Assembly (NCBI GenBank): GCA_015523565.1
Contig: WAKA01000100.1
Location: 1 to 25,853, forward strand
Origin: Candidatus Heimdallarchaeota archaeon
Lineage (GTDB): Archaea; Asgardarchaeota; Heimdallarchaeia; Heimdallarchaeales; Kariarchaeaceae
DNA length: 25,853 nucleotides
Direction: 5' to 3'
The translations under genes were made by a program, and so were the position numbers. This document shows, piece after piece, positions 5,356-20,276 of this stretch (its first letter is position 1; the number at the start of each line of letters is the position of its first letter). The notes under the pieces were generated by a model, which worked only from the letters and a program-made list of their open reading frames with translations, did not search any database and was not told the DNA's origin.

Positions 5356-6945
5356 ATGAATATAATTCAAAAAGTGATGAGGTTTTTCGTCAATACGTTC
5401 TTGATTGGATTTATATTGCCCATACTTTACATTATAGTTAGATTGGCAAATGGAACCTCATTGTTTATCATTTTCAGGGATATTGCAGAATTTCTCGTAG
5501 CCATTGTATCCATTTTGAGAGAAAATGTATGGGGGTTCATGGCATCCTCATTTTTACTTTTGGGATTTTCAGTTTATGCGGGACATCTTCGCCAAATGAG
5601 AAAATTGGGGAATGGCATGTTGGGAATATTCTATGCATCCCTACTGATTTTCTACCCACTGAATCTCTTTTTCTTTAGGAATGCGGTGGTGACAGTCCCG
5701 TTTGTAATTGGAATTGGAGTGCTGTCGTCTTTTTCATTGGCAAATGACATTGCCAAGGTTAAAGTGGAAAAGACTGAGATCAAAAACATTAGAATTGGGT
5801 CATTGTTTCGTTCATTAATAGTGGTGATGACAGGATTGTTGCTTATTGGACCCTCGTTAGTTGCAATGGTTGGACCATCACCACCAATCGTCCCTACGAA
5901 ATATGGTAAGCAAGGACCGTATGATGTGCATCGTACCTCATTGCTTCAACAGGTCAACAAAACCATATTGGAGATGGTCATTCCAGAATTTCCCAACAAT
6001 GAGTGGAAGATATTCCTATATGTCCCAGAAACAACAGCAACAGTTCCAGTCCATATATTTCTTCATGGTCATGGGGGACCTGACCCGAAATACTATGACA
6101 ACATGATGCGTTTGGTTTCCTCTTGGGGGGTATTGGGAATTTTTGTGCAATATCCGACAAATTTCGACAACAAGAAACTGGATAGTTTTGTTGAAAAATA
6201 CTTGCCGTATGTCGCGAATGAAACAGAGATAGTCAAAGGAAATCCCTTACGCTATCAAATTGTCCTAGATGGAATTCTTCAAGCTTTGGAGAGTTTGAAT
6301 TCGTCATCCATTCCAGAAGTGAACTCTTTTCTCCCGAATGGTTTCAATCTTTCAATGCTGATGGTTGTTGGTCATTCACTTGGTGGTGGAATGGTTCTTT
6401 TCATTGCTTCAGAGATGGTGAAAAGGGGATGGGGAACAAAAAAACTGGTGCTTGATATTGAGGCTGGGTGGGTCAGTACAATTCCGACCAACATGACAAT
6501 TCTACCAGATCACACTTTGTTGAATGTTGCAATTTATGATCGGGATTCCATTGTCGCCCCCTGCATAACGGCAGACTTATTTGAAAGGATTGCAACAAGG
6601 GATGGACATAAGCCTCTTCCAAGTGACCAAACATCGTTAGTGATTGTCAGGAGTGATTATCATGGGTTTCCTAGAGAACTAGCACTGCATTACTCTCCAA
6701 CAGATCTGATAAAAGGCAATATATACTATAGAGCCTATGTTGGAAGATTGCAGGCCATGGCAGATTACTTGGTACAGGGGAATGGCAAAGAGTATTTTAT
6801 GGAGAACACAGACATGGGAGAATGGCGCGATGGGACACCATTCAAACCCCTGTTCAGAACAACAGACCCTTACGGTAAGAGAGGAGGAGAGCCAATGAAT
6901 CCATATGTCCAAGACTTTACGAGTGTGTATTGTGTTAACAATTGA
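5356..6945 (+). CDS. Membrane-anchored alpha/beta hydrolase
   Basis: 529 aa; about 5 hydrophobic segments in the first 175 aa, then FLHGHGG (oxyanion loop), GHSLGG (nucleophile elbow), DRDSIV (acid) and ALHYSP (His). Confidence 0.8.
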   Translation: MNIIQKVMRFFVNTFLIGFILPILYIIVRLANGTSLFIIFRDIAEFLVAIVSILRENVWGFMASSFLLLGFSVYAGHLRQMRKLGNGMLGIFYASLLIFYPLNLFFFRNAVVTVPFVIGIGVLSSFSLANDIAKVKVEKTEIKNIRIGSLFRSLIVVMTGLLLIGPSLVAMVGPSPPIVPTKYGKQGPYDVHRTSLLQQVNKTILEMVIPEFPNNEWKIFLYVPETTATVPVHIFLHGHGGPDPKYYDNMMRLVSSWGVLGIFVQYPTNFDNKKLDSFVEKYLPYVANETEIVKGNPLRYQIVLDGILQALESLNSSSIPEVNSFLPNGFNLSMLMVVGHSLGGGMVLFIASEMVKRGWGTKKLVLDIEAGWVSTIPTNMTILPDHTLLNVAIYDRDSIVAPCITADLFERIATRDGHKPLPSDQTSLVIVRSDYHGFPRELALHYSPTDLIKGNIYYRAYVGRLQAMADYLVQGNGKEYFMENTDMGEWRDGTPFKPLFRTTDPYGKRGGEPMNPYVQDFTSVYCVNN

Positions 6946-6957
6946 TATTTTTGACCA

Positions 6958-7908
6958 TTACCAATCTATATTTGAGACATACAATGACTTGAGTTTTGGA
7001 GGAAGGATTGGTTTTTCTATTGTTACAGTATCCAAAGTAAGTTTTTGCAAGACATAAAGGTGGCTAATTCCAAAATCCTGCCATACCTTCATGTTTTTCA
7101 ATGTGAGTTTACGTAAATTGGGGGCATGACAAGAAAGATCAGTCGCCAATGTGGAACATCCGTCCATGTGAAGAAATTTAAGAGCAGGGAATATTGCACC
7201 ATTGAAATTGAGAATAGAATCGGAGATGGTAATTCTTTTTAGGCTTGTATATTTCCTTGGTTTGAAATTCAAAGATACACTGGATAATGAGACAACTGCA
7301 AGTCTTTTGAAGTGATCCAGCCAAATTTCATGAAATTCTTTTCGATATTGCCTTTGACAAATTGACAATGTAAGTTTATTGAGGTGTTTGAAACGGGAAA
7401 TCCAGTCCAAATCCTCTGGCCAACTGTTGTAGCCGTAATGGATTGAAAGAACCGAGAGATTTTTGGCACATATGTTTTTCTTTTTAGGTTTGATTCCATG
7501 TGTTCCTTTCAGGTGAATTGCTAGAAATCTCAAGTGTTTCAGTTTCAATAGATGCATGGGAAAGAAAGGCAACGGAATGCGTGAGAAAAATCCAACAATT
7601 TTTCCATTTCTCAATATCCATTCCTTTTTTTTATTCCGTTTTGTGGGGAATTCGAGTATAAGCATTGCCCAATAGTTCCCATTATTGGTAATCATGGATA
7701 TGTACAACTGCCTTGAAAGAGGGTCAAAAACAAGTTTGAATTGGTCAAGTCGTGCAAATTTTAGAGGAAATATTCCTGAAAAACGTAATTCGATCAAAAA
7801 TTCAGAAAAATGTGTCCAGTCAGACTTATGCAGAAGATTTTCCACATCAATCAAGATCCCATTGGAAATTTGGACTATTTTTTGTTGGGCAGTTGCATGT
7901 TCATCCAT
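6958..7908 (-). CDS. Leucine-rich-repeat-like hypothetical protein
   Basis: About 9 LxxLxL-type units in the C-terminal half (LKHLRFLAI, KNLSVLSI, FKHLNKLTL, FPALKFLHM, APNLRKLTL, PKLKSLYV). ATG 7908 follows AGGGGT and is preferred over TTG 8016. Confidence 0.65.
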   Translation of the reverse strand: MDEHATAQQKIVQISNGILIDVENLLHKSDWTHFSEFLIELRFSGIFPLKFARLDQFKLVFDPLSRQLYISMITNNGNYWAMLILEFPTKRNKKKEWILRNGKIVGFFSRIPLPFFPMHLLKLKHLRFLAIHLKGTHGIKPKKKNICAKNLSVLSIHYGYNSWPEDLDWISRFKHLNKLTLSICQRQYRKEFHEIWLDHFKRLAVVSLSSVSLNFKPRKYTSLKRITISDSILNFNGAIFPALKFLHMDGCSTLATDLSCHAPNLRKLTLKNMKVWQDFGISHLYVLQKLTLDTVTIEKPILPPKLKSLYVSNIDW

Positions 7909-8110
7909 ACCCCTAGTTAAGCAATTATCCACAAAAAAACCTTTATTTTGGTGAAATGACACTCTAAAACACAAAGATTTTTGGTGTTCAATGGGTATTG
8001 CAGGCAAGACGGACAAAGAATATCTGGAAATTAAATTTTTTTGTATTTTTTTTGCTTAACAAGAACCCTATATCCACATTCTTCAAAAATGAAATGGATA
8101 AAGGAAAACC

Positions 8111-8689
8111 ATGGTCGATATCCTTGCAATACTGCAATCAATTGATAGAAATGTGTTGATGATTGCAATAATTGCCATTTTGGTCATTGAAGTGTTTCTT
8201 TTGTCTTTTCCAAAAGAGATTGTAATGGTTTTTGCAGGAATTGCTTTCGGAATAGCAGGAGGAACCATTCTTAACCTTATAGGACTTTTCGGTGCAGCTT
8301 GGTTAGGCTATGAGGGGGGACGTTTGGGAAAATTTGGGGTTGAGAGGTTAAGGGGACATAGATTAGTGGTTAAATACAAAGATCAGTTGGAAAGGAGGGG
8401 AAATACAGGCCTGTCATTGCTTAGACTCATTCCATTAACACCCAATGATATTCTCAGCATAACTTGTGGATTTGTTGAATTCAGGAAAAAGCCATATCTC
8501 ATCATTTCTTTCATAACCGCAATCCCCTACGCATTTCTTTGGGCGTATGTAGGGGACAAGGGGGTAGAAACGTTGATGGAGACCATTCCAACGGCATTTG
8601 ACCCAACCTTATGGTTACTTAGCTTTATCCTTGTAATTCTATTGTTCTGGGTTTTATCCAAGAGGCTTTTTGTAGAAGAGAATGAATGA
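8111..8689 (+). CDS. TVP38/TMEM64 (DedA/VTT domain) membrane protein
   Basis: 192 aa, hydrophobic; FPKEIVMVFAGIAFG, LLRLIPLTPNDILS and G..F.Y pattern. Confidence 0.88.
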   Translation: MVDILAILQSIDRNVLMIAIIAILVIEVFLLSFPKEIVMVFAGIAFGIAGGTILNLIGLFGAAWLGYEGGRLGKFGVERLRGHRLVVKYKDQLERRGNTGLSLLRLIPLTPNDILSITCGFVEFRKKPYLIISFITAIPYAFLWAYVGDKGVETLMETIPTAFDPTLWLLSFILVILLFWVLSKRLFVEENE

Positions 8690-17008: not shown

Positions 17009-18037
17009 TTGATCAATGCAATTCTTTTGTTGATAGGGAACTTTTTTCTGATTGTTTCAATTCTGGTGATAATTGAGAGCATCCACAGGTATTCAATTGG
17101 AGAATTTTGGGGAATAGTGATTGGACTCGTATTCCTTTTCTATCACCTCTCTGTTGAAGCGTTTACCCAAATTATTCTGGAACCCACTTCTGAAAACATA
17201 GAACTTGCCAGAAAGTTGCTTTCAACTAGCATACCCTCTTTACTTTTTGGCTTTTTGATAATATGGATTACGATTGGGAAAATGCAAGGAAGAAATGAAA
17301 ATACACTCGACATCATTCATTATTCATTTTTGGGGTTCGCGGCGGGAGTGATTTTCTCCACGATTAAAACAGAGCCAAGGGATCAACAATGGTACACCTT
17401 TATTGATCCGCCATGGATTGTCCTTTTTATTGCACCACCATTTCTACTTATAATTACCAGGATTGCCAAGGCAAATATTGACGCCATAAGAGAGGGGAAA
17501 AAGGCAGGACGTTTGCTCTTTGCAGGATGGATTGTAATGGCAATTACCTTTTCAGTGTTGGCTGTTGAAAGATTGTTGCAACTGTCGACCGTACAGTTTT
17601 ATGTACTTTATCCATTTGCAGTTCTGTTGATGTCATTTTCAATACTTCAAAATCCGTTGGTACTGATCTCTAAAAAAGTATACCCAGCATATTTCATGAT
17701 AGTCCGAAAATTTGACGGAACTGTAGTATTTACACATGATTATGGAAAAACTCTTAAGCATATTCCGATGGCAATTCAAGCGGCAATGGAGATTTTGGCT
17801 GAAACAGCAGGAGAGACACGACCACCAAATGTGATCTCATTTCTCAATTCCTATATCACCATTGGAGAGAGTGAAAACTATTATGCATATTTATTTAGCA
17901 AAATAACAAACATTTCAGTAAAACGATGGATAAGTGAGATATTGGAGACGATAGAGGAAACTGGTGAGGAATGGGTCAAAAGTAATGGAATCCTTCACAA
18001 GAAATTGAATGCTTTGAATGGTGACCGAACAAACTAA
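17009..18037 (+). CDS. 7-TM membrane protein with C-terminal longin-like soluble domain
   Basis: 342 aa, TTG start; seven hydrophobic segments in aa 1-215, then about 120 aa with a beta-beta-alpha-beta-beta-beta-alpha-alpha pattern (YFMIVRKFDGTVVFTHDY...). Confidence 0.6.
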   Translation: MINAILLLIGNFFLIVSILVIIESIHRYSIGEFWGIVIGLVFLFYHLSVEAFTQIILEPTSENIELARKLLSTSIPSLLFGFLIIWITIGKMQGRNENTLDIIHYSFLGFAAGVIFSTIKTEPRDQQWYTFIDPPWIVLFIAPPFLLIITRIAKANIDAIREGKKAGRLLFAGWIVMAITFSVLAVERLLQLSTVQFYVLYPFAVLLMSFSILQNPLVLISKKVYPAYFMIVRKFDGTVVFTHDYGKTLKHIPMAIQAAMEILAETAGETRPPNVISFLNSYITIGESENYYAYLFSKITNISVKRWISEILETIEETGEEWVKSNGILHKKLNALNGDRTN

Positions 18038-19023
18038 AACAAACGATCAGAAACTGACAATTCATAATATTCCCTACTGCCATCACTTTTCTTGAAGTAA
18101 AGGTTTGAACCACTGCCATTTGTGTTTCTTACAAGACAATACCCAATGCCGTCAATCATTACGTATTCATAGAACCACAACAACGAGACAATCAACCAAA
18201 TCACCTTTCGCATATTCAAGTCCCTTTTTTTTGCCAATGGAGTGGCATGGGACAAGTAAATGGATTTTAGACCAGATTGAGACGCAATTTTGCTCAGGTT
18301 TGAATCAGTTGTCATAAATAGTACCTCCAAGTTGGTAACTTTGGACAATTGTGTGAACTGTTCTACAATTAAAAAGTCAAAAACAGGGCTTGTAGGGCTG
18401 AAATTTGAATATTTATAGCTATCCACCTCATCTTCAGGTTTAAAAACGACCATAGGAAAACCAGGCTTGGCGATGATTAACGGATAGCGTTCCATCAGTG
18501 TTTGAAGCATGAATGAACCAAATTTACCGCGTTGACCCCGAGGACGATACATCTTTGCGGGAAGGACAAATCCATTCGGAAAATTTTTAGGTCTACTCTG
18601 GTCTGAAGAAATCATGTGATGCAATTCATATTGGCTTGCATGGGATGCAAGAATCAATGGGTAACGAGTCAAAGTATGTTGACGCTGGAATTCCATCCTA
18701 ATAAATTCAATATAATTGGAAACTTGGTTCAGCAACAAAACCGATGTATCAAGAGCTAACGCGAGTTGTCGATTGTCCTTGAAAGAATCGCCCACGAGTT
18801 TTTTAATTTCGTCCTTGATCATTTTATCATTTGATGGAGGAATAATTCCAGCCCTCCACAAGATATCTCGAAAGGAGAACGCCTGATTCCCTTGTAAGTG
18901 AAAACGGTCATTGGAATGCTCGATATCAATTGACAAGGCAGGAGAATTACCGACCATGGCATCAATTTTAGAGATGCCACATGATCCTAGCAAATTCTTC
19001 ATTTCACGAAAGAATGATTTCAC
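18034..19023 (-). CDS. PIN-domain ribonuclease with N- and C-terminal extensions
   Basis: 329 aa; LALDTSVLL (D92), QYELH (E133), FDFLI (D216) and FMTTDSNL (D240) give a complete PIN acidic tetrad; stop overlaps the convergent gene's stop. Confidence 0.8.
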   Translation of the reverse strand: MKSFFREMKNLLGSCGISKIDAMVGNSPALSIDIEHSNDRFHLQGNQAFSFRDILWRAGIIPPSNDKMIKDEIKKLVGDSFKDNRQLALALDTSVLLLNQVSNYIEFIRMEFQRQHTLTRYPLILASHASQYELHHMISSDQSRPKNFPNGFVLPAKMYRPRGQRGKFGSFMLQTLMERYPLIIAKPGFPMVVFKPEDEVDSYKYSNFSPTSPVFDFLIVEQFTQLSKVTNLEVLFMTTDSNLSKIASQSGLKSIYLSHATPLAKKRDLNMRKVIWLIVSLLWFYEYVMIDGIGYCLVRNTNGSGSNLYFKKSDGSREYYELSVSDRLF

Positions 19024-19099
19024 AAGTAATGAATCCTGATTGAAGATTTAAGAATGATGCTATCTGAAAGCATAAAGTACTTGGAAAATAAGAACAAGC

Positions 19100-19576
19100 A
19101 TGAAAACAACCCTTATTGCAACTTCAGGAACAAGCATAAATGGAATCCACAACATCTTGTTCGCACACCACATTAAAAGGGCATATGAATTCGATAAAAT
19201 AATTCTTCTTCTAACTGAAAAATTAACTGGAAAATTCTTTGAGGATGTGGTCGAAAGAATCGAAAAATCAAACAGCGAGATGAATTGGAATCTCCCAAAG
19301 CCTGAAAAAAGAACCATTCCAGGGGAAAATCTCATAAAAATAAGAGATGCCATCATGGAAATTCTGAAAGATTACCAGCATTTTGTCCTTGATATCACGG
19401 CTGGAAGAAAAATCATGGCTGTTGGAGCGACAATTGCGTTTCAACAGACAAAAGCAGAGCATAAGGAACTTGCATATTACCTTTTAAAAGGCGATACAAC
19501 AACACCAGCCACCGATAGACTCATCCAGCAACTCCTCCCAGATGAGTGGACTCTCGATTATTATAAAGAAGTATGA
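19100..19576 (+). CDS. Stand-alone CARF-domain protein (ring-nuclease-like motifs)
   Basis: 158 aa; LIATSGTS (motif I, S12), DKIILLLT strand, VLDITAGRKIMAVG (D-x-T-x-G-R-K motif II), LAYYLL; no HTH or nuclease fusion. Confidence 0.82.
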   Translation: MKTTLIATSGTSINGIHNILFAHHIKRAYEFDKIILLLTEKLTGKFFEDVVERIEKSNSEMNWNLPKPEKRTIPGENLIKIRDAIMEILKDYQHFVLDITAGRKIMAVGATIAFQQTKAEHKELAYYLLKGDTTTPATDRLIQQLLPDEWTLDYYKEV

Positions 19577-19631
19577 GTAATTTCCATTATTTCAGCACAT
19601 TTTTTTTAACACATCAACTGGATTGTAAATT

Positions 19632-20099
19632 ATGGAGTCAAAACAGAATATCAAGACAATAGCGGCAATACTTACATTCGTACCATTGGTTTACATTGTA
19701 TTGCTGGCATTCATTGAAGGAATAGTCCCAATGTCCCATCCACAACCAGATACATTGTTGGAAATATGGATACCTGTAATACTTGCAGTTGTAAGCCTCT
19801 TTGACGCAGAATTAGCATTCCAATTGTTTTTCAAAAATGCAATCAAAGCTACAACGAAAGAACCAAACGAAAAAAATTTTGCGAAAGCCAGGTCAAATGC
19901 AATAATTGGTTTTGTGCTGATTGAAAGCGTTGCAATGTATGGTTTCCTGATAGGAATTATTCAATTATTTGTTACCCAAACCTTTAATATGACCATCCCG
20001 TTGACATTCATGACAATCTCATTTCTTCTCTCCTTGTATGCATATTTAACATATGTCCCAAAACTTTCCGAATTTATCCAAAATAGACAAATCGAATAA
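19632..20099 (+). CDS. Hypothetical 4-TM membrane protein
   Basis: 155 aa with four hydrophobic segments; TM3 is IIGFVLIESVAMYGFLIG. Confidence 0.75.
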   Translation: MESKQNIKTIAAILTFVPLVYIVLLAFIEGIVPMSHPQPDTLLEIWIPVILAVVSLFDAELAFQLFFKNAIKATTKEPNEKNFAKARSNAIIGFVLIESVAMYGFLIGIIQLFVTQTFNMTIPLTFMTISFLLSLYAYLTYVPKLSEFIQNRQIE

Positions 20100-20204: not shown

Positions 20205-20276
20205 GCACGCGTGGTGAAGGGGTTATCATAGGAGCCTTCCAAGCTCTTGTCCCGGGTTCGAGTCCCGGCGCGTGCA
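20205..20276 (+). tRNA. tRNA-Gly (anticodon TCC), intronless, CCA not encoded
   Basis: Acceptor GCACGCG/CGCGTGC plus A discriminator; D stem GTGA/TCAT; anticodon stem GGAGC/GCTCT with loop CTTCCAA; T arm CCGGG-TTCGAGT-CCCGG. Confidence 0.97.

What the first reader, a model, noticed from the sequence alone, without database searches (positions are those of the whole stretch)
18034..20099. Orphan split CARF / PIN module (plus 4-TM gene) beside tRNA-Gly: candidate CRISPR-independent cyclic-oligonucleotide system
Seen: a PIN gene with an intact D92/E133/D216/D240 tetrad and a stand-alone CARF gene are divergent, only 76 bp apart, so they probably share a control region. A 4-TM gene follows the CARF gene 55 bp later. 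No cas gene, Cas10/CD-NTase cyclase or CRISPR array is in the window, and the PIN has no adjacent small VapB-like antitoxin. Established: CARF domains bind cyclic oligoadenylates and are usually fused to an effector (HEPN, PIN, restriction-like nuclease, HTH, TM helices). Inference: sensor and effector are encoded separately here. The CARF could control the PIN RNase in trans as a ligand-gated antitoxin or activator, with the PIN's roughly 85-aa N-terminal and 70-aa C-terminal extensions as docking surfaces. I cannot exclude that similar pairs were already noted in comparative CARF surveys.
Basis: partly seen in the sequence, partly recalled or inferred. Interest (0 to 1): 0.78.

Follow-up and report, generated by a model that had tools for sequence, protein, structure and literature searches.

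The report
Split CARF sensor plus PIN RNase
In a Heimdall-group Asgard archaeon, a small signal-sensing protein (CARF) and a separate RNA-cutting enzyme (PIN) form a conserved gene pair that is a two-piece version of a catalogued one-piece helper protein (Crf6/CARF_m1); the pair is real, but its kind is known and the genome does carry CRISPR type III signal makers elsewhere.

Summary
A 329-aa PIN-like gene (18034-19023, -) and a 158-aa CARF gene (19100-19576, +) are divergent and 76 bp apart. A 4-TM gene follows 55 bp later, then tRNA-Gly. Both folds are confirmed by AlphaFold2 (pLDDT 88.6 and 92.8). The two models tile one solved fused protein, SiRe_0806 of Sulfolobus islandicus, a CARF-PIN protein crystallised with cA4. 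The CARF matches its residues 1-137 (Z 15.1) and the PIN-like protein matches residues 155-399 (Z 12.2). Both also hit the same PADLOC model, CARF_m1--CARF_PIN, a family now named Crf6.

All 19 loci examined that carry the PIN-like gene (about 16 lineages) have this CARF family directly beside it. The arrangement is either co-directional and overlapping, or divergent as here. The two proteins co-diverge (r 0.89).

The "CRISPR-independent" reading is not supported for this genome. It holds two Cmr cassettes (one Cas10 with GGDD), a Csx1, at least ten CRISPR arrays and two SMODS genes. Relatives of the pair lie beside Cmr2, beside Csx1/Csx20/SAVED, or beside Cas1-Cas2. [quoted passage not shown]

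The 4-TM gene is linked only within the genus. This scan has met the same split pair on other genomes. Verdict: a new member of a known kind, of modest interest.

The parts
18034..19023 (-). Effector subunit, 329 aa: N-terminal adaptor domain (about aa 1-85), PIN RNase core (about 86-260; D92, E133, D216, D240), C-terminal beta-rich domain (about 261-329)
   Evidence: ORF. The family alignment shows the acidic tetrad is invariant. AF2 model pLDDT 88.6. VIA Z 12.2, 210 residues aligned, to SiRe_0806 residues 155-398; Z 8-10.7 to PIN domains over residues 86-268. PADLOC CARF_m1--CARF_PIN profile positions 229-308, E 3e-4.
19024..19099 (.). 76-bp divergent intergenic region. It probably holds two back-to-back promoters: AT-rich TATA-like stretches lie about 25 bp upstream of each start codon (inference only).
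   Evidence: Sequence. The spacer is 72-80 bp in the other directly divergent loci L031, L043 and L049, but its sequence is not conserved. No notable repeat was found.
19100..19576 (+). Sensor subunit: stand-alone CARF domain protein, 158 aa, with motif I G10-T11-S12 and motif II G102-R103-K104
   Evidence: Pfam CARF_Card1 30.4 bits, over the cut-off. PADLOC CARF_m1--CARF_PIN E 3.2e-12, profile positions 4-125 of 465. AF2 pLDDT 92.8. VIA Z 15.1 to SiRe_0806 residues 1-137, and Z 14.4-14.7 to the Crn1 ring nucleases. Family invariants are listed.
19632..20099 (+). 4-TM protein, 155 aa, with an ATP-synthase c-subunit-like C-terminal hairpin. It is probably co-transcribed with the CARF gene. Its membership in the module is doubtful.
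   Evidence: ORF. PF00137 28.4 bits over residues 67-110. It is a second copy besides the canonical c subunit on contig C174. Homologues lie next to the CARF gene only in the congeners L003, L005 and L025.

Best explanation
The two divergent genes encode the two halves of a Crf6 (legacy CARF_m1) 'CARF+PIN' effector as separate subunits. Shown here: the CARF protein and the three-domain PIN-like protein tile the fused, cA4-binding protein SiRe_0806; the two gene families are always adjacent; and they are inherited together. Inferred: a CARF homodimer binds a cyclic oligoadenylate, most likely cA4, through motif I (G10-T11-S12) and motif II (G102-R103-K104). It docks non-covalently on the N-terminal adaptor domain of the PIN-like subunit, giving a CARF2:PIN2 complex equivalent to the fused homodimer. 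Ligand binding would then switch on metal-dependent RNA cleavage by the PIN site (D92, E133, D216, D240), causing dormancy or abortive infection. The Crn1-like motifs may also let the CARF slowly cleave the ligand and so reset the switch. In this genome the likeliest signal source is one of the two type III-B (Cmr) complexes encoded on other contigs. The 4-TM gene is probably only a genus-level neighbour.
For: Domain identity. Tiling of one fused protein: the CARF matches SiRe_0806 residues 1-137 (Z 15.1) and the PIN-like protein matches residues 155-399 (Z 12.0-12.2). Both genes hit the same PADLOC model, PDLC01973. Adjacency: the pair is adjacent in all 19 loci examined. That includes L053, whose CARF was not in the profile (E 2e-40). 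Co-divergence: pairwise identities of the two proteins correlate, r 0.89, with 0 of 5000 Mantel permutations as high. Signal source: Cas10 on C71 carries GGDD and is followed by Cmr3/4/5; a second Cmr set is on C223. There are CRISPR arrays on at least 10 contigs. Csx1, an accepted cOA effector, also lies among housekeeping genes in this genome. CRISPR links in relatives: Cmr2 plus a RAMP protein next to the pair in G006; SAVED, Csx20 and Csx1 next to it in L040; Cas1 and Cas2 nearby in L047. Cas10 is found in 6 of 7 pair-bearing genomes of the order, against 7 of 40 others. The family is listed as Crf6 'CARF+PIN', with functions sensor, effector and ring nuclease.
Against: Most loci, this one included, are not next to cas genes, and the census itself says Crf6 is typically not CRISPR-associated. 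G005 has the pair but no detected Cas10, at 89% completeness. The Cas10 association vanishes at genus level (3 of 4 against 4 of 9). ST0035, a fused CARF-PIN protein of S. tokodaii, bound cA4 only weakly and was not activated by it (PMC6546367). The sequence similarity of the PIN-like part to fused CARF-PIN profiles is weak (E 3e-4), and SiRe_0806 is matched by structure only.
Confidence: 0.62

Rival explanations
1. The architecture is the same two-subunit one, but the signal does not come from CRISPR type III. The CARF would sense another nucleotide, for example a product of one of the genome's SMODS nucleotidyltransferases, or RNA ends with a 2',3'-cyclic phosphate as in RtcR. The pair would then act as a stand-alone stress or defence switch.
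For: [quoted passage not shown] The window and most related loci sit among housekeeping, toxin-antitoxin or helicase-PLD genes. G005 has the pair without a detected Cas10. The own genome has two SMODS genes. ST0035 was not activated by cA4.
Against: The closest solved relative was crystallised with cA4. The cA4-contacting motifs I and II are intact and largely conserved in the family: G10, R103 and K104 are invariant and G102 is present in at least 90%, while position 12 varies between S, T and A. This genome has a GGDD Cas10 and many arrays. Three related loci are embedded in cas or ancillary genes. Csx1 is equally 'orphan' in this genome, so distance from cas genes says little.
Confidence: 0.22
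2. The CARF is a stand-alone Crn1-like ring nuclease that only degrades cA4. The PIN-like protein would be an independently regulated RNase, and the two would be neighbours without forming a complex.
For: The profile of the CARF family hits the Crn1 proteins Sso2081 and Sis0455 at E 5e-12 to 4e-11. That is far better than its hit to the CARF of SiRe_0806 (E 0.022). Motif I (G-T-S) and motif II (G-R-K), which are needed for Sso2081 activity (PMC10018336), are present. The size (158 aa) is close to that of Crn1 (about 180 aa).
Against: The NCBIfam Crn1 equivalog scores 19.4 bits against a cut-off of 125. PADLOC ranks CARF_m1 models first, and no CARF7/Crn1 model appears among the 25 best of the 44 families that matched. 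Strict adjacency and co-divergence with the PIN-like gene hold in every lineage, including loci and one genome (G005) with no type III genes detected, where a ring nuclease alone would have no substrate. The serine of motif I is replaced by alanine in L031 and L043. The two proteins tile one fused protein.
Confidence: 0.08
3. The pair is a toxin-antitoxin-like module. The CARF would be a ligand-gated antitoxin that keeps the PIN toxin inactive and releases it on ligand binding or on its own degradation. That would be de-repression, not allosteric activation.
For: In the co-directional loci the small gene comes first and overlaps the PIN gene, as in VapBC operons. L041 lies in an island of toxin-antitoxin genes.
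Against: The partner has no DNA-binding antitoxin fold. The PIN protein is a 329-aa three-domain protein, not a roughly 140-aa VapC. The fused homologue cannot work by dissociation. In this window the genes are divergent, which removes translational coupling.
Confidence: 0.08

Closest known systems
SiRe_0806 of Sulfolobus islandicus (PDB 9jxw apo, 9jxx with cA4; deposited as 'PIN domain-containing protein', 429 aa)
   Same: It has the same three-part layout: CARF, then an adaptor domain, then the PIN core and a C-terminal domain. The window's CARF aligns to its residues 1-137 (Z 15.1, 137 residues aligned, rmsd 2.7-2.8). The PIN-like protein aligns to its residues 155-399 (Z 12.0-12.2, 210-220 residues aligned).
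   Different: It is a single polypeptide, whereas here there are two genes on opposite strands. Sequence identity is only 14-20%, and sequence searches barely connect the two (E 0.022 for the CARF, nothing for the PIN part). I found no paper on its function in the library.
Crf6 (legacy CARF_m1) 'CARF+PIN' family of the CARF census (Makarova et al. 2025, PMC12669027, Supplementary Table 2; PADLOC models PDLC01973, PDLC01971, PDLC01972)
   Same: The window's CARF scores best on CARF_m1--CARF_PIN (E 3.2e-12), and the PIN-like protein hits the PIN part of the same model. [quoted passage not shown] Stand-alone CARF_m1 models exist in PADLOC.
   Different: The table lists the architecture as fused CARF+PIN. 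This subfamily is always two genes: 15 clusters of 317-373 aa and two shorter entries (157 and 170 aa), with no fused form among its sequence relatives. In the window's clade the two genes are mostly turned head to head (7 of 8 rows in the tree). No member of the family is known to me to have a demonstrated ligand-activated RNase activity. ST0035 was negative with cA4.
Crn1 ring nucleases (Sso2081, Sis0455; Crf7)
   Same: They are stand-alone CARF proteins of similar size and share motif I (G-T-S) and motif II (G-R-K). The family profile matches them at E 5e-12 and the structure at Z 14.4-14.7.
   Different: The window's CARF falls far below the Crn1 equivalog cut-off (19.4 against 125 bits). 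The region that corresponds to the helical insert is shorter. It always has a PIN-like partner gene, which Crn1 does not.
VapBC-type PIN toxin-antitoxin pairs
   Same: A PIN RNase is encoded next to a small partner gene, which often lies upstream and overlaps it.
   Different: The partner is a ligand-binding CARF, not a DNA-binding antitoxin. The PIN protein is more than twice the size of VapC and has two extra domains.

Membership tests
Crf6 / CARF_m1 (CARF+PIN) | The CARF domain is best matched by CARF_m1 profiles | tested here: met
   PADLOC: PDLC01973 CARF_m1--CARF_PIN E 3.2e-12 is the top hit; PDLC01068 CARF_PIN E 3e-8; PDLC01971 CARF_m1--CARF E 1.2e-7. CARF fold: Z 15.1.
Crf6 / CARF_m1 (CARF+PIN) | PIN RNase domain with a complete acidic active site | tested here: met
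   D92, E133, D216 and D240 are invariant. PIN folds match at Z 8-10.7 over residues 86-268. Weak hit to the PIN part of PDLC01973, E 3e-4.
Crf6 / CARF_m1 (CARF+PIN) | The CARF and PIN parts are collinear with a fused family member | tested here: met
   The two models tile SiRe_0806 residues 1-137 and 155-399. That SiRe_0806 itself scores on the CARF_m1 profile was not tested, because no sequence reference was available.
Crf6 / CARF_m1 (CARF+PIN) | CARF and PIN on one polypeptide (the architecture as tabulated) | tested here: not met
   There are two ORFs on opposite strands, and no fused form among sequence relatives. I do not treat this as clade-defining, because stand-alone CARF_m1 models are part of the same census set (PDLC01971, PDLC01972). 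I therefore file the pair as the two-gene form of the family.
Crf6 / CARF_m1 (CARF+PIN) | Binds a cyclic oligoadenylate and regulates the RNase | not testable with these tools
   Only the conservation of motifs I and II could be shown.
Crn1 ring nuclease (NCBIfam NF040581; Crf7) | Scores above the equivalog cut-off | tested here: not met
   19.4 bits against a cut-off of 125.
Crn1 ring nuclease (NCBIfam NF040581; Crf7) | Motif I (G-T-S) and motif II (G-R-K), which are needed for cA4 cleavage in Sso2081 | tested here: met
   G10-T11-S12 and G102-R103-K104 are present in the window's protein. In the family, G10, R103 and K104 are invariant, and position 12 is S, T or A.
Crn1 ring nuclease (NCBIfam NF040581; Crf7) | C-terminal helical insert (lid) with Tyr133 | tested here: inconclusive
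   The corresponding stretch (aa 130-149) is shorter and is the least confident part of the model, at pLDDT about 63. It was not examined residue by residue.
Type III CRISPR ancillary effector | Encoded in or next to a type III cas locus | tested here: not met
   No Cas10 hit or CRISPR array falls on the window's contig. The feature is met in the relatives L029 (Cmr2 plus RAMP) and L040 (SAVED, Csx20, Csx1), and Cas1/Cas2 lie nearby in L047.
Type III CRISPR ancillary effector | The genome encodes a cyclase-competent Cas10 | tested here: met
   The Cas10 on C71 (632 aa) carries GGDD and is followed by Cmr3/4/5. A second Cmr set is on C223.
VapBC toxin-antitoxin | Small single-domain PIN toxin with an adjacent DNA-binding antitoxin | tested here: not met
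   The PIN protein is a 329-aa three-domain protein, and its partner is a CARF.

The most novel reading that the evidence does not exclude
The split CARF and PIN subunits form a non-covalent, ligand-gated RNase that answers to a signal other than Cas10-made cyclic oligoadenylate. It would be a CRISPR-independent nucleotide-sensing switch kept among housekeeping genes in Asgard archaea. In this genus the neighbouring fast-evolving membrane proteins (the c-subunit-like 4-TM protein, the 7-TM protein and the multi-TM wHTH proteins) might feed into it or act downstream.
Probability: 0.2. Interest if true: 0.6.

Novelty: new member of a known kind. Interest (0 to 1): 0.28.

Why it matters
Crf6/CARF_m1 is a catalogued CARF effector family. 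I know of no member with a demonstrated ligand-activated activity, and the census says it mostly lies away from CRISPR loci, so what it senses is an open question. The natural two-subunit form would let sensor and nuclease be purified, mixed and mutated separately. That is a convenient way to ask how a CARF domain passes ligand binding to an effector without a covalent link, and whether the CARF also acts as a ring nuclease. For this genome the practical result is an annotation. The pair is a probable cOA-responsive RNase, one of at least two CARF effectors (with Csx1) that lie away from the cas genes while two Cmr systems are encoded on other contigs.

Tried and rejected
- Sequence searches of the PIN-like protein against Pfam, NCBIfam and the PDB gave nothing. 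A family profile gave only marginal PIN hits: E 0.029 to MJ1533 and PIN_4 in 2 of 15 members. The fold search was needed to place it.
- No fused relatives were found. The exhaustive HMMER search found 15 proteins: 13 full-length (317-373 aa) and two shorter entries of 157 and 170 aa. The 'longer' word search with the CARF found nothing, which is weak evidence.
- The first genome-contig scan with the wide alignment failed for lack of a conserved stretch. A narrower alignment gave only 3 loci.
- The 76-bp spacer is not conserved in sequence across lineages, has no notable repeat and no terminator. The sigma-70 scan does not apply to archaea.
- The Atlas search for the 4-TM protein gave only unnamed clusters.
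- The Makarova 2020 CARF census could not be read, and no paper on SiRe_0806 is in the library.
- I rejected the idea of an island inserted at tRNA-Gly. The same flanks (POR, Aldedh on one side; radical SAM, HAD on the other) surround the module in congeners.
- I rejected a simple frameshift split, because the genes are on opposite strands and the two-gene form is family-wide.
- A complex prediction was not possible, because the structure tool takes single natural sequences only.
Full report
**Observation**

- The PIN-like gene is at 18034-19023 (-) and encodes 329 aa. Its GTG start gives an N-terminus that aligns with homologues.
- The CARF gene is at 19100-19576 (+) and encodes 158 aa. The divergent gap between the two genes is 76 bp.
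- A 4-TM gene at 19632-20099 (+) follows the CARF gene after 55 bp.
- tRNA-Gly(TCC) is at 20205-20276.

There is no small VapB-like ORF. My array scan and the genome-wide Cas10 and SMODS searches placed no hit on this contig.

**What the two proteins are**

The CARF protein passes the Pfam CARF_Card1 cut-off. Its best PADLOC match is CARF_m1--CARF_PIN (E 3.2e-12), on profile positions 4-125 of 465. The PIN-like protein has no Pfam or NCBIfam hit, but it weakly matches positions 229-308 of the same PADLOC model (E 3e-4).

An exhaustive HMMER search of 1.84 billion representatives found only 15 relatives of the PIN-like protein. Thirteen are full-length (317-373 aa) and two are shorter entries (157 and 170 aa). 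In their alignment D92, E133, D216 and D240 are invariant, as are G59, H135, G166, G169, I219 and N231.

The AlphaFold2 model of the PIN-like protein has pLDDT 88.6. It has a PIN core at about aa 86-260, which matches PIN domains at Z 8-10.7. Its best match is SiRe_0806 of Sulfolobus islandicus, a protein crystallised with cA4. That match covers model residues 1-316 against chain residues 155-399 (Z 12.0-12.2, 210-220 residues aligned).

The CARF model has pLDDT 92.8. Its best match is residues 1-137 of the same protein (Z 15.1). This is tied within one Z unit with the Crn1 ring nucleases, Csm6, Card1 and other CARF proteins.

The two gene products therefore tile one known fused CARF-PIN protein. 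The 'extensions' of the PIN protein are the adaptor and C-terminal domains of that architecture.

**Is the pair a unit?**

Within the organism's order (47 species genomes), the PIN-like gene occurs in 6 genomes and the CARF in 7, always side by side. The seventh CARF sits at a contig end. The record titles of related loci identify the group as Heimdallarchaeota.

I then looked up the contigs of eleven further family representatives. I scanned all loci with HMMs built from the two alignments. In all 19 loci, about 16 lineages, the family-specific CARF is adjacent. This includes L053, whose CARF was not used to build the profile (E 2e-40).

There are two arrangements:
- **Co-directional.** CARF comes first and abuts or overlaps the PIN-like gene, in the same order as in the fused protein (L028/L050, L029, L033, L040, L041, L042, L045, L047, L053).
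- **Divergent.** The window, L031, L043 and L049 have 72-80 bp spacers. L003, L005 and L025 have a multi-TM wHTH gene in between. L030/L052 has a DinB gene in between.

In a tree of the PIN-like proteins, the divergent form is confined to the clade that holds the window. Pairwise identities of the CARF and PIN-like proteins correlate at r 0.89, and none of 5000 Mantel permutations reached that value. This shows joint inheritance without partner swapping. Shared phylogeny contributes to that figure.

**CRISPR context**

The genome assembly is 90% complete and split into 233 contigs. It contains:
- a Cmr cassette on C71 (Cas10 of 632 aa with the GGDD cyclase motif, then Cmr3, Cmr4 and Cmr5) and a second Cmr set on C223;
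- a Csx1 (CARF-HEPN) on C219, which also lies among housekeeping genes;
- CRISPR arrays on at least ten contigs;
- two SMODS nucleotidyltransferase genes.

In relatives, the pair is the divergent neighbour of Cmr2 and a RAMP protein (G006). In L040 it follows SAVED, Csx20 and Csx1. In L047 it lies near Cas1 and Cas2. Three further lineages place it at the end of a conserved operon of radical SAM, SF1 helicase, an unknown protein and a PLD nuclease.

Cas10 is present in 6 of 7 pair-bearing genomes of the order, against 7 of 40 others (Fisher p 0.001). The genomes are kin, however, and at genus level the contrast is only 3 of 4 against 4 of 9.

[quoted passage not shown] An earlier report found that the fused S. 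tokodaii protein ST0035 bound cA4 only weakly and was not activated by it (PMC6546367). So the signal is not settled for the family. For this genome a Cas10-made cOA is the simplest source.

**Ring-nuclease question**

The profile of the CARF family hits the Crn1 enzymes Sso2081 and Sis0455 at E 5e-12 to 4e-11. That is better than its hit to the CARF of SiRe_0806 (E 0.022).

The residues shown to matter in Sso2081 are motif I (Gly9-Thr10-Ser11) and motif II (Gly104-Arg105-Lys106) (PMC10018336). They correspond to G10-T11-S12 and G102-R103-K104 here. In the family, G10, R103 and K104 are invariant, and position 12 is S, T or A. The protein falls far below the Crn1 equivalog cut-off (19.4 against 125 bits).

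I read this as a ligand-binding site that may also cleave its ligand slowly. That agrees with the 'r' in the census table. I do not read it as a free-standing Crn1.

**Mechanism proposed**

A CARF dimer binds cA4, or another cOA. It is docked on the N-terminal adaptor domains of two PIN-like subunits. Ligand binding switches on the PIN RNase, and possible ligand cleavage by the CARF resets it.

What is shown: the folds, the tiling, the adjacency, the co-inheritance and the presence of cyclase-competent Cas10. What is inferred: the complex, the ligand, the activation and the biological outcome.

**The 4-TM gene**

It has four predicted helices and a C-terminal hairpin like that of an ATP synthase c subunit (PF00137 28-30 bits). 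It is a second copy besides the canonical c subunit on C174. Homologues follow the CARF gene only in three congeners. I do not count it as part of the family-wide module.

**Comparison and verdict**

The pair is the two-gene form of the catalogued Crf6/CARF_m1 family. Its closest solved relative is SiRe_0806. The head-to-head gene order is a clade-level peculiarity.

Earlier notes of this scan describe the same split pair on several other genomes and name the same family. I checked that naming in the paper's supplement myself.

The finding is sound. 'Orphan, CRISPR-independent' is not supported for this genome. Novelty: a new member of a known kind. Interest is modest.

Noticed in passing
window 19632-20099 (+): The 4-TM protein has a C-terminal hairpin like that of an ATP synthase c/K subunit (motif LIESVAMYGFLIG; PF00137 over the cut-off). 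It is a second copy besides the canonical c subunit on G000:C174. It is kept beside the CARF gene only within the genus.
   Followed up: partly
window 17009-18037 (+); L005 7039-8049; L032 134-1042: This is a multi-TM protein of 342 aa with a soluble C-terminal domain; another note of this scan reads it as 7-TM plus a longin-like domain. In congeners it lies directly downstream of the PIN-like gene on the same strand. In the window it is inverted and overlaps the PIN-like gene's end by 4 bp.
   Followed up: partly
L005 1694-5944; L032 2159-6416; L003 2-4172: Congeners carry a larger, fast-evolving block around the pair: two paralogous multi-TM proteins with a C-terminal winged-helix domain (428-455 aa) and a DUF7475 protein. 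All three are missing from the window.
   Followed up: partly
L028 3218-12128; L050 1099-10009; L045 1-9116: A conserved operon of radical SAM, SF1 helicase (AAA_11/AAA_12), an unknown protein of 351-366 aa, a PLD nuclease, the CARF and the PIN-like gene recurs in three lineages. Two of them (L028, L050) also show a divergent CARF-wHTH (HFX_2341_N) gene. This may be a separate helicase-nuclease defence unit that recruits the pair.
   Followed up: partly
L029 8838-14839 (G006, next to Cmr2/RAMP at 5365-8570): The second copy of the pair in a complete Heimdall genome has its PIN-like gene in pieces. It is interrupted by about 4.4 kb that carries a P-domain protein and a STAND NTPase-TPR gene.
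   Followed up: partly
G000:C219:42650-44188 (L059 7651-9189, -): Csx1 (CARF-HEPN, PADLOC E 5e-55) is encoded among housekeeping genes (S49 peptidase, MFS transporter), far from the Cmr cassettes on C71 and C223. In this genome the CARF effectors found are encoded away from the cas genes.
   Followed up: partly
G000:C39 (L060 4011-4832, -) and G000:C49 (L061 4198-5085, -): There are two SMODS-domain nucleotidyltransferases. One lies next to a 619-aa M48 peptidase. The other has an OAS1_C-like region and lies next to a DNA methylase. These may be CBASS-like signalling genes.
   Followed up: no
window 18034-19023 (-), protein residues 135 and 140-180: Residues outside the PIN acidic tetrad are invariant: H135, and an R-G-x-R-G-x-x-G loop (G163, G166, G169) within an insertion in the PIN core. 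Their role is unknown.
   Followed up: no
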